DNA from: a virus
Lineage: Duplodnaviria > Caudoviricetes
Direction: 5' to 3' (one strand)
Length of the DNA: 64,000 bases
IMG/VR virus record: IMGVR_UViG_3300021431_000079
Coordinates: 1-64,000 of that record
Positions 18,494-27,640 of this stretch are shown here, piece by piece. Made by a program: the position numbers and the translations under genes. The first letter of the stretch is position 1; each line of letters opens with the position of its first letter. A model generated the notes under the pieces. That model was given only the letters and a program-made list of their open reading frames with translations, ran no database searches and was not told the DNA's origin.

Positions 18494-19519
18494 TTATGTA
18501 AATAATTCATCAGCTTCAGCTTCATCATCAATACCGCACACATATATTTTCGTTGTCTCTGCGGAATTGTGACCAAGTAATGATCTAACAACCTCAATAC
18601 TCTTTCCGTCCTCAACGACTCTAACTGTCGCTGAAGCACTTCGAAAAGCATGAGGATAAATTCGTCTTCCTAAAATTGGAGTCAAAATATCCATACAAAT
18701 ATCATTGAGCGTAGCAGGTGTAGCAGGAACATAATTTCCATGATCCTTCGTTATGAACATTTCATTTACATTATCCTCTCCACGAACCTCTATCCATTTC
18801 TTAAAAGCGTCCATAGAATAGTCAGAGAATTTCAACTGCCTAATCTTACCAGTCTTGCCCCTACCCTTACAACGTATCTTAGGAGTCTGGTAATATTCAG
18901 CGGTTTTCTTCTCTACGCTTCCGTCTTCATTTTTTACCTCAACCTCTTTTACAATTTTCTCAGCATTGATAATATCCTTCTGAATCTGAAGCAACTCGCC
19001 TCTACGACACCCAGTTTCAAATGCGAATTTAATAAAAGCTATAATCATGTATTTGTTCCAACGATTACTCTTTTCTACCTCATCACAAAGCATCATGATT
19101 TCTTTGCGGGTAGGTGGATTTTTTTCATGAACATAACTTTTCTCTGGCACAGGAATAGAAGAGTTTACACAATTCCTGAACATTGGATATTCGTCTAAAT
19201 AGTAAACTTCAATATAGTTATTAAGACTACTAATAGTGGAACGCTTTGTTCTTATATCAGAACTTGAGCATCCTCTGTTAACCAACCAGTTCTGAAACTT
19301 TAGATATTCCCTTGGTTTTATTTCTGTCACATTCTTGTTGTTCAAATTATCTTTGATCCATTTTAGCCAAATACGAAGACTTGACTTATATGCAAATAGC
19401 GTCTTGTCAGAAAGCTGTGTTGAGTTTACCAAAAAGTCCTCCACAAGTTCTCTGTTCAACTGATTACATAATGCATACTCTTCGTCAGTAATGGGTGGCA
19501 ACTTTATCAATCTCATCAC
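18494..19519 (-). CDS. tyrosine recombinase (XerC/D-like)
   Basis: GCRRGE, KG, HAFR, LGH and TKIY catalytic residues all present. Confidence 0.88.
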   Translation of the reverse strand: MMRLIKLPPITDEEYALCNQLNRELVEDFLVNSTQLSDKTLFAYKSSLRIWLKWIKDNLNNKNVTEIKPREYLKFQNWLVNRGCSSSDIRTKRSTISSLNNYIEVYYLDEYPMFRNCVNSSIPVPEKSYVHEKNPPTRKEIMMLCDEVEKSNRWNKYMIIAFIKFAFETGCRRGELLQIQKDIINAEKIVKEVEVKNEDGSVEKKTAEYYQTPKIRCKGRGKTGKIRQLKFSDYSMDAFKKWIEVRGEDNVNEMFITKDHGNYVPATPATLNDICMDILTPILGRRIYPHAFRSASATVRVVEDGKSIEVVRSLLGHNSAETTKIYVCGIDDEAEADELFT

Positions 19520-24268: not shown

Positions 24269-27200
24269 TTATGTACCTTCCTTATATACATATTCTGAAT
24301 CCTTACCCTTAACAAAAGATTCCATGAAATACCGATTATTTGTTCTATACATACAGTTCAAGAACTTTCTGGAATATCTCTTGTTAGCATCCTTTAATTC
24401 AGTTCTTTCCAATTCATTATCATTCAGAATAGATAGCTCAACTATCTTGTTCACAGTAGCCCTTCCCATTTTAATACCACGAATACCATCTAACAGTTTT
24501 TCCATCTTAGATGATATTTTAGTGTAACTGTCAAAAGAGGAGAGTTCCTTATCATCAGAAATATCCGAGATAGCTTCTATGTATTCTTTAATTAACATCC
24601 TAACCTTTGTAATGTGATCCGTGTTAAAGTTGTCTTCAACCTTCACAAAAAAATCAGTGGTAGGAAGAGTCTTGTCATATATTGTTGGTTTGATGGCGTT
24701 TAAACATTCTACCAACCAGTTCATAGGACAAACAAAATCAGGATTGATTCTGTTTTTCATCTTATTTATGTTCTTCTTAACAACATCATAAGAAATAACA
24801 TCACCGTCTTTTATATGCTGAACTGGTCTTGTGTGTTTCATAAATTTTGGAAAGTCATATTTGTACTTTCTAACATTTCCATCATCATCTGTTATATATC
24901 TAACGTACTGCATACACGAAAGGTTTTGCAGTCGCACAATCTCAGCATTGGCATCCACCTCGAATTCTCTCTTAGTGGAGTCGATAATAACCTGCCCTGT
25001 TAAGTGTTGTAGCTCTTTATCTACAACCTTTGGCTTTCACCAAAGTGTCGGACTATCTCTTTATCTACGACTTTACGTTTAGATATTCGGCGCTCGTGTC
25101 CTGATTATTGCTTACCTGCTCACAGATTAGTCTCTGAACCTTCTTACTACTTTTATGGTATTCGTAAGCTTGGCTTCTGATTGGCATATATATTCACATA
25201 CTTAGCTTTCCAGAAATTCACCGAATTTTAATTATATATATTTCTATATAATTGACCCATTTTGTTAAGCCAACACACTCAAAATTATAAACACGTTATA
25301 CAGTTGCTTTGTATCTTGATCAGTGTCCTCAGACAGTCCATTACTTATATTCGTATAGTAATAGGAGAGTGCGAGTTGTGCGAGATTAGAAGACCAACCT
25401 ATTCCAAGTCTTGACTTAGAAAGATTATTATCCATCTTCGCATAATCCTCTAAAGTGTTATCATAGAAGATACCACTCTCTTTCAATGCGTTCACAATTG
25501 TTCTATAATTCGTAAACGCTGTCTTTGCACACCTTACAATGTCTTGTTGATTTGTCACGAAGCAGAAGTCTGCACCTGTTATATCCACGGCTCTTTATCC
25601 GTAGCGTCTCCAACTTTCATTGGAGTATCGGACTATCTCATCAACCCAATTACCATTAGGCTGTTCGGCACTCGTGTCTGGGTTATCGCTCTACCTGCTC
25701 ACCAGTTAGTCTCTAAACGTTACCACCTACTTCAATGGTATTCAGTAGTCTTCGTAATTGATTGGCATATATTTATAAAATACTTAGCTTTCCAATTTTT
25801 CACCGAATTTAATCATCATTATTGCTAATGAAGTGATCCAATTTTTAGATATACAATACTTATTGAATACTATATATCATGCAAGAAAATCAAAATCAGC
25901 ACCGTTCAATCTCGACTGTATACTCGTATTTATACAATTGACAGCAATTATATTTGGACTAAACTTAAAGTACCTTTCCATCTCATCTGAATAATGATTA
26001 TGAAAGTACACTATATTGTTCGGGCTATTATGTGGACTTCTGAATCCTGCAAGATACTCACCATCAGCAAACCTCTTTGTATAGCACTGAATGCAATCCT
26101 TCTCAAACTGTAAAGATTGATCCTTGTTCCAATCCTCACCAACAACATAAAGCAGGAGAGCATATGGATTCCCACACAAAGTAAGATTATCTGCATTAAC
26201 AAATATCTTTCCAGTTCTTAACTTTTCCACATAAGCAAATATAATTGCTCTCTTTTCCTTCTTAAACCAATTGCATTTCCAGATATCCCTATTCCATTTC
26301 AAAAGATCAGCAAGCATCTCATAGTGATTACTGATGTTTGCGTTCTTTCTTAGAAATGCCTCAAATACATCAACATTATTTTTTAATTTCGTTATATACT
26401 CTGCACTTGTTTGAATAATGTTCTCAATATCACTCTTTGTACATGGTAAACTATTCACCATCTGATAGCTCATCTGCTGATACTTACCAAGTTTACTTGG
26501 GTGATCTGTTTTCACTATTCCCCAGTTATTTCCATTTTCTCTGATTTTACTCTTCCAATACTCATAAGCCTCAAGCTTATCATTCCCCATTATGTCCCAA
26601 AATTTCTTATACCACTTAACAGCATTCTCAGTTGTGATGATCTTTATGTCCTTCAGCCTGTGCTTTAATCCAAAAATATCTGCAACCTCATAAGTGTCAT
26701 AATCATTTCCTGTTTTTTCACACCAGTCTTTAAAGAAGAGTTGAATATGTGTCCTGAATCCACACATCTTAAAGAAGTGATTCCTGAGCAACAACATTCC
26801 ATTAGAATCATCTGGCATACAGCTTGATTCTATGAGTCCCATTCCATCCCAAAGAGTATTGACCACATCACGTTCTTCCGTCTTAACTGCACATCTCTTT
26901 TGAATCTCATTGTTCTGGTCGTAATACTCTTCAGCATAAACAACATCAACCATTGTCCTGAATACAGAATCCTGATCCTTTACAATAACCAAATTCTCTA
27001 CTGGCATATGGAATAGCCCGGTAATAGATGATGTAGTAAGAGGAGCATATGCTGACATTTCCACGATCTTAGCATTATGCTCTGGCATCTTATGACCAAC
27101 ACCCATAGTCAACCAGTTATAAGCTACATCATATAGTTCCTCGTTGATAAACATAGCCTGACCAAGTTTAGCCTTAGCGGGAGTCCTGAACAGATACTTG

Positions 27201-27640
27201 TAATGAATGGTCTCTGTAACCTCTTTCTTTTCTGCCTTGTCATAATTCTTATAGGTCACATCAATTCCATCAGTATAAATGATCTTTCTAAGTTCCTCTC
27301 TGCTGATCTGCTTGTACTGATCCTTATGTCTCTCCACACGTTCAAGGATGGATTTGATTTTTTCCATATCCTCATCCTTGGCATTGTACAAAAGCTTCTT
27401 TACACGTTTTACTTCACCTGTATATGATTTAGTCCCAAAATCAAAATCCAGACAAATCACATCTCTTGTAGATTCATTGTTATAAACATGAAGTCCATGT
27501 TCCTTCATAAAGAATAAGAACATTGAGTTGTTCAGCATAGCATCCGTGTAAGTACCATACTCCCTAACACCAGAATTTAGCTCATATAGAATAGCGGCAG
27601 AGTATTTCCTGATCTTTAGACCGTATTCACCATTTGCCAT
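24269..27640 (-). CDS. YonO-like single-chain DNA-dependent RNA polymerase, spliced: join(25888..27640,25268..25572,24269..24994), 927 aa
   Basis: LWDGMGLI, LLRNHFFK and GFRSPH motifs; splicing rebuilds the catalytic RLNGADFDSD and LSVLAQVIIDSTKR; total 2784 nt is in frame. Confidence 0.88.
24995..25267 (-). ncRNA. group I intron (273 nt, no ORF), RNAP intron 2
   Basis: UUGGCU|UAAC...ACAGGG|CAGGUU boundaries; IGS GGUCAAU pairs with GUUGGCU; R UUCAGAGACUA; S AAGAGAUAGUCC. Confidence 0.9.
25573..25887 (-). ncRNA. group I intron (315 nt, no ORF), RNAP intron 1, inside the DxDxD motif
   Basis: UUUGAUU|UUCUUG...CAGGUG|CAGAC boundaries; IGS GAUCA..AUUAGC pairs with exon GCUGAU..UGAUU; R UUUAGAGACUA; S AUGAGAUAGUCC. 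Confidence 0.88.

What the first reader, a model, noticed from the sequence alone, without database searches (positions are those of the whole stretch)
24269..27640. Phage RNA polymerase that needs two self-splicing events, one inside the catalytic DxDxD motif
Seen: the ORF track shows three fragments, but removing 25573-25887 and 24995-25267 gives one 927 aa frame. Intron 1 splits the Ser codon of GADFD-S-D, so the unspliced product stops at GADFDFLA and lacks the third catalytic Asp. Both introns have P1 with a U-G pair, a terminal G and P7 elements. Established: YonO-type single-chain polymerases of SPbeta-like phages transcribe late genes and use a DxDxD metal-binding motif. Inference: splicing could act as a checkpoint (GTP, Mg2+, temperature) on the whole late programme.
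Basis: partly seen in the sequence, partly recalled or inferred. Interest (0 to 1): 0.85.

Follow-up and report, generated by a model that had tools for sequence, protein, structure and literature searches.

The report
Two introns split a phage polymerase
A 165-kb phage's own RNA polymerase gene, a relative of YonO of Bacillus phage SPbeta, is interrupted by two small self-splicing group I introns, one inside the codons for the catalytic aspartates; this is real, but it is a common habit of mobile introns in this gene family and not a shown regulatory switch.

Summary
Rfam finds two group I introns on the minus strand, at 104 and 78 bits against a cut-off of 50. Removing 25887-25573 (315 nt) and 25267-24995 (273 nt) gives a 927-aa frame. 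This frame runs without gaps alongside uninterrupted homologues. A 99%-identical allele from another metagenome lacks intron 1 at exactly the proposed junction.

The protein belongs to the YonO family. It shares phrog_8308 with YonO, its DFDSD aligns to YonO's DNDGD, and its fold is a two-barrel RNA polymerase.

The two introns are paralogues, about 79% identical. They belong to one intron family whose structure is kept by compensatory changes in 44 of 60 pairs. In related phages this family occupies the same two sites, often with HNH or GIY-YIG homing endonuclease genes.

Most relatives have no intron (71 of 80 viral contigs). A 50-nt tract at site 1 is 34% diverged against 1.9% elsewhere, which is a homing footprint.

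So these are ORF-less mobile introns. Splicing is needed for an active enzyme. The proposed 'checkpoint' has no support, and no RNA data could be obtained.

This scan has already noted introns at this motif in YonO-like genes of at least six other genomes. Verdict: a new member of a known kind.

The parts
25888..27640 (-). Exon 1 of the YonO-family RNA polymerase gene (584 codons plus the first base of Ser585). It ends ...GAT TTT GAT T.
   Evidence: phrog_8308 E 2.4e-81. Colinear with intron-less homologues.
25573..25887 (-). Intron 1, an ORF-less group I intron of 315 nt. It has an in-frame TGA four codons in, and its last base is G (25573).
   Evidence: Rfam RF00028 77.7 bits over 25858-25608. 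Absent from the 99%-identical allele L005. nhmmer family profile E 1.4e-68.
25834..25839 (-). Internal guide sequence of intron 1 (GGAUCA). It pairs with the exon end UGAUU, with a U-G pair at the splice site.
   Evidence: Read. Exon-guide covariation with relatives: exon GAC-U pairs with GGGUC in L008 and L077.
25848..25878 (-). Extra hairpin inside the P1 loop of intron 1. It is absent from intron 2 and from relatives.
25889..25897 (-). Codons Asp582-Phe583-Asp584, the first two aspartates of the catalytic triad. Ser585 is 25888 plus 25572-25571, and Asp586 is 25570-25568.
   Evidence: Aligned to YonO DNDGD. D, D, S, D are invariant in 33 full-length homologues.
25268..25572 (-). Exon 2 (305 nt, residues 585-686). 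It ends ...TTG GCT.
24995..25267 (-). Intron 2, an ORF-less group I intron of 273 nt. It begins with an in-frame TAA, and its last base is G (24995).
   Evidence: Rfam RF00028 104.1 bits. Present at 98.5% identity in L005. Relatives have an intron at the identical point.
25252..25258 (-). Internal guide sequence of intron 2 (GGGUCAA). It pairs with the exon end UUGGCU, with a U-G pair at the splice site.
   Evidence: Rfam alignment; sequence.
24269..24994 (-). Exon 3 (residues 687-927 and the stop codon). It begins CAG GTT ATT ATC GAC.
   Evidence: Colinear with homologues to residue about 913-920.
25888..25928 (-). Co-conversion-like tract in exon 1 next to intron 1. Together with the first 2 nt of exon 2, it holds 17 differences from the intron-less allele (-40 to +2), which is 34% over the 50 nt around the site against 1.9% elsewhere.

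Best explanation
The gene at 27640-24269 (minus strand) encodes a 927-aa single-chain, two-barrel, YonO-family RNA polymerase. Two ORF-less members of one mobile group I intron family interrupt it.

After transcription each intron should fold into its ribozyme and use a guanosine cofactor to cut after the U of the U-G pair in P1. It should then ligate the exons after its terminal G.

- Removing intron 1 rebuilds the Ser codon of D-F-D-S-D and so restores the third catalytic Asp.
- Removing intron 2 rebuilds the invariant ...LA|QvIID... motif.
- Early in-frame stops (TGA after 4 codons in intron 1, TAA at the first codon of intron 2) keep ribosomes out of the ribozyme cores.

The introns are there because homing endonucleases of this intron family target the most conserved codons of the gene. 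The window's copies have lost, or never had, the endonuclease gene.

Shown: intron identity, exact junctions, family membership of the protein, mobility marks. Inferred: splicing itself, DNA-dependent polymerase activity, and any role in late transcription.
For: - Intron identity: Rfam scores of 104 and 78 bits against a cut-off of 50.
- Junctions: the spliced frame of 927 aa has no stop and is colinear without gaps with L002, L003 and PMBT24, and with 71 uninterrupted viral relatives.
- Junction 1: the intron-less allele L005 (99% aa) reads GATTTTGATTCCGAC where the window's spliced form reads GATTTTGATT|CAGAC.
- Ribozymes kept by selection: introns 1 and 2 are about 79% identical, with compensatory changes in P8, P9 and P9.1. 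In nine family members, 44 of 60 pairs show changes on both sides.
- P1 of intron 1: the exon and the guide sequence covary with those of relatives.
- Mobility: nine of 80 relatives are interrupted, only at these two sites. The long versions carry NUMOD4+HNH_3, HNH_3 or GIY-YIG genes. The short versions are the same introns without the gene.
- Homing footprint: a co-conversion tract at site 1, 34% against 1.9%.
- Protein identity: YonO scores 1220 bits on phrog_8308, exon 1 gives 2.4e-81 and homologue P0007 gives 1.2e-95. hhalign to YonO gives probability 93.6% and E 2e-7, with the Asp triads aligned. The AF2 model (pLDDT 80.7) matches RDR2 and QDE-1 at E 4e-10 to 1e-6, then phage P74 gp62 and P32 gp64 RNAPs at E about 1e-3, then crAss-like gp66 at E 1.5e-3.
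- Importance of the triad: it is essential in YonO (PMC5467207).
Against:
- Intron 1 has an unusually long P1 loop of 48 nt with an extra hairpin. Rfam's own P1 for it is mismatched, so its splicing efficiency is uncertain.
- Neither intron encodes an endonuclease, and no HNH_3 or GIY-YIG gene is detectable in the 165-kb genome. Present-day mobility of these two copies would need an enzyme supplied by a co-infecting relative.
- Polymerase activity of this clade (about 20% identity to YonO) has not been assayed.
Confidence: 0.85

Rival explanations
1. Regulatory checkpoint. The two ribozyme reactions are kept by the phage to gate production of its polymerase, and so the late programme, in response to GTP, Mg2+ or temperature.
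For: - An active enzyme cannot be made without both splicing events.
- The gene lies upstream of, and in the same orientation as, the terminase and portal genes.
- Reviews discuss conditional splicing as a possibility (PMC11878797, PMC3073962).
Against: - Intron presence varies among near-identical genes. L005 lacks intron 1, and L007 against L008 and L009 against L010 differ in the same way.
- 71 of 80 relatives and 91 of 120 clusters have no intron.
- The same sites hold endonuclease-bearing introns, and a co-conversion tract is present.
- No feature that could sense a signal was found.
Confidence: 0.07
2. Protective retention. The ORF-less introns are kept because they disrupt the target sites of homing endonucleases carried by co-infecting relatives. 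This would shield the polymerase gene from cleavage, an interference-competition setting as in PhiPA3 and PhiKZ. It adds a benefit to the main explanation and does not replace it.
For: - Related phages carry HNH and GIY-YIG genes in introns at exactly these sites.
- In PhiPA3, an intron-encoded HNH enzyme in an RNAP gene cuts the intron-less gene of PhiKZ and gives a competitive advantage (PMC11620839).
- This phage has both sites occupied and has no endonuclease of its own.
Against: - No cleavage or co-infection data exist for these phages.
- Occupancy is expected from homing followed by loss of the endonuclease gene, without any benefit.
- Most relatives persist with no intron.
Confidence: 0.2
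3. Dead or decaying gene. The introns no longer splice, and the polymerase gene is a pseudogene in pieces.
For: - No RNA evidence for splicing.
- Intron 1 has an atypical P1 loop.
Against: - All three exons are open and in register.
- Every invariant residue checked at the junctions is kept.
- The ribozyme cores score well above Rfam's cut-off, and their differences are compensatory.
- The exon-guide pairing of intron 1 is kept by a matched change.
Confidence: 0.04

Closest known systems
YonO, the single-chain RNA polymerase of Bacillus prophage SPbeta (Forrest et al. 2017, PMC5467207)
   Same: Same PHROG family, phrog_8308. The profile alignment places the Asp triads on each other. Both are single chains of 840-930 aa with a two-barrel fold. 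Both genes lie upstream of morphogenesis genes.
   Different: yonO is uninterrupted. Sequence identity is only about 20-27% over the aligned core. The motif is DFDSD here and DNDGD in YonO. The phage is a 165-kb virus record whose close relatives come from gut samples, and it is not shown to be SPbeta-like. Activity and late-gene role are untested here.
PhiPA3 group I intron with HNH endonuclease gp210 in the virion RNAP beta-subunit gene (Birkholz et al. 2024, PMC11620839)
   Same: A group I intron in a phage RNA polymerase gene, inserted right at conserved aspartate codons. Relatives of the window's introns carry HNH genes at the same site.
   Different: The host gene there is a subunit of a multisubunit polymerase, and the intron carries its endonuclease. 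Here the gene is a single-chain YonO-type enzyme, there are two introns, and both lack an endonuclease gene.
Classical phage group I introns (T4 td, nrdB and nrdD; SPO1 and Bastillevirinae DNA polymerase; Twort orf142 with several introns)
   Same: Small self-splicing introns in essential, conserved phage genes. They show presence/absence polymorphism, HNH or GIY-YIG homing endonucleases, ORF-less derivatives and co-conversion of flanking exon sequence (PMC2988022, PMC3073962, PMC11878797).
   Different: The host gene family is different, and I found no paper linking YonO-type genes with introns. Two paralogous introns sit in one gene, and the hotspot at the DxDxD codons has at least three insertion points.

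Membership tests
Group I catalytic intron (Rfam RF00028) | Match to the covariance model above the curated gathering score | tested here: met
   104.1 and 77.7 bits against 50, full model length 1-253.
Group I catalytic intron (Rfam RF00028) | 5' splice site after a U that forms a U-G pair with an internal guide sequence (P1) | tested here: met
   Intron 2: UUGGCU pairs with GGGUCAA in the Rfam alignment. Intron 1: UGAUU pairs with GGAUCA by inspection, supported by matched exon and guide changes against L008 and L077.
Group I catalytic intron (Rfam RF00028) | Terminal G, and exon ligation that restores the reading frame | tested here: met
   G at 25573 and at 24995. The 927-aa frame is colinear with intron-less genes.
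Group I catalytic intron (Rfam RF00028) | Conserved core helices (P3-P9) maintained by covariation | tested here: met
   44 of 60 consensus pairs show changes on both sides in nine family members. P9, P9.1 and P8 are compensatory between introns 1 and 2. P7 does not vary, so it says nothing either way.
Group I catalytic intron (Rfam RF00028) | Self-splicing with guanosine in vitro, or spliced RNA in vivo | not testable with these tools
Mobile (homing) group I intron | Intron-encoded homing endonuclease | tested here: not met
   The window's introns are 315 and 273 nt with no room for such a gene. No HNH_3 or GIY-YIG gene is found in the genome. Family members at the same sites in L026, L074, L001, L045 and L066 do carry them.
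Mobile (homing) group I intron | Presence/absence polymorphism among close relatives, and a co-conversion tract | tested here: met
   L005 lacks intron 1. Near-identical pairs L007/L008, L009/L010 and L049/L045 differ by an intron. The tract is 34% diverged against 1.9% elsewhere.
YonO-type single-chain two-barrel RNA polymerase | Homology to YonO over the catalytic core | tested here: met
   Same phrog_8308: YonO 1220 bits, exon 1 at 2.4e-81, P0007 at 1.2e-95. The family rings only in B. subtilis among 14 control genomes. hhalign gives probability 93.6%, E 2e-7.
YonO-type single-chain two-barrel RNA polymerase | Catalytic aspartate triad (DxDxD) at the homologous position | tested here: met
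   After splicing the motif is DFDSD, aligned to YonO DNDGD. D, D and D are invariant in 33 homologues.
YonO-type single-chain two-barrel RNA polymerase | Two double-psi beta-barrel fold in one chain | tested here: met
   The AF2 model of the intron-less homologue P0007 (65% identical to exon 1) has pLDDT 80.7. Foldseek top hits are RDR2 and QDE-1 (E 4e-10 to 1e-6, probability 1.00), then P74 gp62 and P32 gp64 RNAPs (E about 1e-3), then crAss-like gp66 (E 1.5e-3, probability 0.84). The window's own spliced protein was not folded.
YonO-type single-chain two-barrel RNA polymerase | DNA-dependent RNA synthesis and transcription of late genes | not testable with these tools
   Known for YonO only (PMC5467207). 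Here only the gene order is suggestive.

The most novel reading that the evidence does not exclude
The two sequential ribozyme reactions are used by the phage as a timer or sensor. Production of its own polymerase, and with it late transcription, would depend on the GTP and Mg2+ state of the cell. The introns would then be domesticated regulators, not passengers.
Probability: 0.07. Interest if true: 0.7.

Novelty: new member of a known kind. Interest (0 to 1): 0.33.

Why it matters
- **Annotation.** Gene callers report this polymerase as three unrelated fragments. About a quarter of the clusters in its clade are cut short at one of the two intron sites (28 of 120). Recognising the introns restores a key enzyme of a large group of phages whose sequenced members come largely from gut samples.
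- **Insertion sites.** The data map a hotspot for mobile introns at the metal-binding codons of YonO-type polymerases. They also map a second site at an invariant LAQxxID motif. HNH and GIY-YIG endonucleases are swapped on a shared ribozyme scaffold.
- **Possible follow-up.** This gives a natural system for testing intron-mediated competition between related phages, as shown for PhiPA3 and PhiKZ.
- **What it does not change.** It does not alter what is known of how group I introns or two-barrel polymerases work.

Tried and rejected
- **Megablast of the locus against GenBank phages:** no match.
- **tblastn of exon 3 alone against phages:** no match. The C-terminal part is poorly conserved, but full-length protein alignments are colinear.
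- **Pfam on the three fragments:** nothing significant.
- **PDB by sequence or by profile:** no credible relative. A hit to isopropylmalate isomerase at E 2e-4 is taken as spurious. Fold comparison was needed instead.
- **The search for related loci with the single protein:** found nothing. An alignment found 252 relatives.
- **Alternative splice points:** a shift by one base at either site breaks the terminal-G rule or creates a stop. GCTT+AGG gives TAG at site 2, and GATTT+AGAC would need the intron to end in C.
- **Fragments as separate subunits without splicing:** rejected. The Asp triad would be divided, and uninterrupted homologues are single chains.
- **More introns of this family in the genome:** none found by Rfam at gathering score, by a family nhmmer profile at E up to 10, or by a permissive Rfam scan of 1-24300.
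- **Free-standing HNH_3 or GIY-YIG genes in the genome:** none found.
Full report
**1. The observation**

The ORF list shows three open fragments on the minus strand: 27640-25877 (587 aa, ending ...NGADFDFLA), 25588-25265 and 24958-24269. Rfam's group I intron model matches twice between them, both on the minus strand and over the full model. One match is at 25277-25028 (104.1 bits, E 6e-26). The other is at 25858-25608 (77.7 bits, E 5e-18). The gathering score is 50.

Read on the minus strand, exon 1 ends GAT TTT GAT T at 25888. Intron 1 runs 25887-25573 (315 nt) and ends in G. Exon 2 starts CA GAC and ends TTG GCT at 25268. Intron 2 runs 25267-24995 (273 nt), starts with TAA and ends in G. 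Exon 3 starts CAG GTT.

Joining the three exons gives 2784 nt, which is 927 codons and a stop, with no internal stop.

**2. Are the junctions right?**

Three uninterrupted homologues align across both junctions without a gap. They are L002 (966 aa), L003 (956 aa) and Enterocloster phage PMBT24 WDQ45559 (831 aa). NGADFD|SD lies on NGCDYDSD, SGADFDSD and NGCDFDGD. ILSVLA|QVIID lies on ILAVLSGMEID and similar.

Stronger evidence comes from an ENA metagenome contig, L005. It encodes a 686-aa protein that is 99% identical. At the DNA level it is 96.7-98% identical on both sides, contains intron 2, and lacks exactly 315 nt at site 1. It reads GATTTTGATTCCGAC where the window's spliced form reads GATTTTGATT|CAGAC.

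A shift of either junction by one base violates the terminal-G rule or makes a stop codon.

**3. Are the introns sound ribozymes?**

- **They are paralogues.** The two introns are about 79% identical. Their differences in P9 (CUCCAA/UUGGAG against CUUUGG/CCAAAG), P9.1 and P8 are compensatory.
- **Covariation across the family.** In nine ORF-less family members from six contigs and the window, RNAalifold finds 60 consensus pairs. In 44 of them at least one sequence keeps the pair through changes on both sides.
- **P1 of intron 2.** UUGGCU pairs with GGGUCAA, with the splice-site U opposite a G.
- **P1 of intron 1.** Rfam's P1 for intron 1 is mismatched. The real one pairs exon UGAUU with GGAUCA (25839-25834) across a 48-nt loop that holds an extra hairpin (25878-25848). 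A matched change supports this pairing. Relatives whose exon ends GAC-U have the guide GGGUC, while the window has GAU-U and GGAUC.
- **Early stops.** Both introns stop translation early: TGA after four codons in intron 1, and TAA at once in intron 2. This fits the known need to keep ribosomes out of the ribozyme (PMC3073962).

**4. What is the gene?**

Pfam and sequence searches of the PDB give nothing. The identification rests on the following.

- **Shared PHROG family.** Exon 1 matches phrog_8308 at 2.4e-81. YonO of SPbeta (L087:16359-18875, minus strand) fills that profile end to end at 1220 bits. The uninterrupted homologue P0007 matches it at 1.2e-95. Among 14 control genomes the family is found only in Bacillus subtilis.
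- **Profile alignment to YonO.** A profile of 33 full-length homologues aligns to YonO with probability 93.6% and E 2e-7. It places DFDSD on YonO's DNDGD. D, D, S and D are invariant in those 33 sequences.
- **Fold.** An AlphaFold2 model of P0007 has pLDDT 80.7 and pTM 0.78. Its best PDB matches are the single-chain two-barrel polymerases RDR2 and QDE-1 (E 4e-10 to 1e-6, probability 1.00). Next come the phage P74 gp62 and P32 gp64 RNA polymerases (E about 1e-3), then crAss-like phage gp66 (E 1.5e-3, probability 0.84).
- **Function of the triad.** Forrest et al. showed that YonO's aspartate triad is essential and that YonO transcribes the SPbeta late genes (PMC5467207).

So the unspliced 587-aa product lacks the third Asp and 342 C-terminal residues and cannot be active. 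That this enzyme transcribes late genes here is only suggested by gene order. On the same strand downstream lie a PhoH-like gene, a protease, an exonuclease, an integrase-like gene, the large terminase and the portal gene.

**5. Why are the introns there?**

- **Protein clusters.** Of the 120 best homologue clusters, 91 are full length, 19 stop at site 1, 9 stop at site 2 and 1 stops elsewhere.
- **Viral contigs.** Of 80 related IMG/VR contigs (57-60% aa identity), 71 are uninterrupted. Nine are interrupted, and only at these two places.
- **Site 2.** Breakpoints mapped against the nearest intron-less gene show that site 2 is at the identical nucleotide in all (GCT | intron | CAR).
- **Site 1.** The DxDxD region has at least three insertion points. 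The window's point (DxD-T|CA-D) is shared by L008, L077, L026 and L047. A point 6 nt upstream is used in L066, L074 and L075. L001 has a point upstream of the motif.
- **Homing endonucleases.** The long inserts (about 720-1300 nt) carry endonuclease genes. L026 has NUMOD4+HNH_3, L074 and L001 have HNH_3, and L045 and L066 have GIY-YIG.
- **ORF-less copies.** All inserts are homologous to the window's introns. The short ones are the same RNA without the gene. For example, the L010 intron is 92-98% identical to the two flanks of the L045 intron.
- **Near-identical pairs.** L007/L008, L009/L010 and L049/L045 differ by presence of an intron.
- **Co-conversion.** Next to site 1 the window differs from L005 at 17 positions between -40 and +2. 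That is 34% over the 50 nt around the site, against 1.9% over the rest of 2.7 kb. This is the footprint expected from repair with a diverged intron-bearing donor.

These are the standard marks of homing introns. Site 2 also falls at invariant residues (A, Q, I, D, K, R), as expected for elements whose endonucleases recognise conserved sequence.

**6. The checkpoint idea**

Nothing in the data calls for it, and the polymorphism argues against a conserved regulatory role. It remains formally possible. I rate it at about 7%.

A more grounded extension is that ORF-less introns protect both target sites from endonucleases of co-infecting relatives. This is by analogy with PhiPA3, whose intron-encoded HNH enzyme cuts the RNAP gene of PhiKZ next to conserved aspartate codons (PMC11620839). 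That too is untested here.

**7. Genome context**

The window is the first 64 kb of a 165,006-bp virus record rated complete. These are the only two group I introns detectable in it. This holds for Rfam at gathering score, for a family-specific nhmmer profile and for a permissive Rfam scan of 1-24300. No HNH_3 or GIY-YIG gene is present.

**8. Novelty**

Group I introns in essential phage genes at catalytic motifs are textbook, and one in a multisubunit phage RNAP gene is published. I found no paper linking YonO-type genes with introns.

This scan has already noted introns at or next to the DxDxD motif of YonO-like genes in at least six other genomes. One follow-up reached the same verdict. 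What this window adds:

- two paralogous ORF-less introns in one gene;
- a second conserved site;
- a natural intron-less allele that fixes junction 1;
- a clear co-conversion tract.

Verdict: real and correctly read. It is a new member of a known kind, of moderate interest.

Noticed in passing
L003:6405-6895 (MT835469.1, human faecal phage contig of 176 kb): A GOLLD RNA (Rfam RF02032, 172.6 bits) flanked by tRNA genes lies about 1 kb downstream of the uninterrupted YonO-like gene of this distant relative.
   Followed up: no
L088:13284-13393 (genome 77284-77393, beyond the window): A drum RNA (RF02958, 78.5 bits) sits inside a cluster of 11 tRNA genes at genome 73.5-78.2 kb.
   Followed up: no
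Neither Rfam at E up to 1 nor the family nhmmer profile finds any group I signal there. ORF-free gaps such as 1835-2622 exist but were not examined.
   Followed up: partly
window 18494-19519 (-): A tyrosine integrase-like ORF (phrog_1, E 1e-39) lies between the exonuclease gene and the packaging genes. This suggests a temperate lifestyle or a recombinase with another role.
   Followed up: no
P0062 (774 aa homologue): One homologue's gene call ends near residue 770 of the 927-aa protein, away from both intron sites. This may be a third interruption site in the family.
   Followed up: no
L074:9592-10432, L075, L066:10322-10689, L077: Several relatives carry tRNA arrays of up to 11 genes within 1.5-2.5 kb downstream of the polymerase gene. 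In the window's phage the tRNA cluster lies elsewhere.
   Followed up: no
L010, L026, L045 at site 2 (about 13 nt upstream of the intron): Intron-bearing alleles recode ...L S V L A with synonymous codons (CTT TCA GTA TTG GCT against CTA AGC GTT CTT GCT in the intron-less neighbour). This keeps the protein and provides the exon half of P1.
   Followed up: partly
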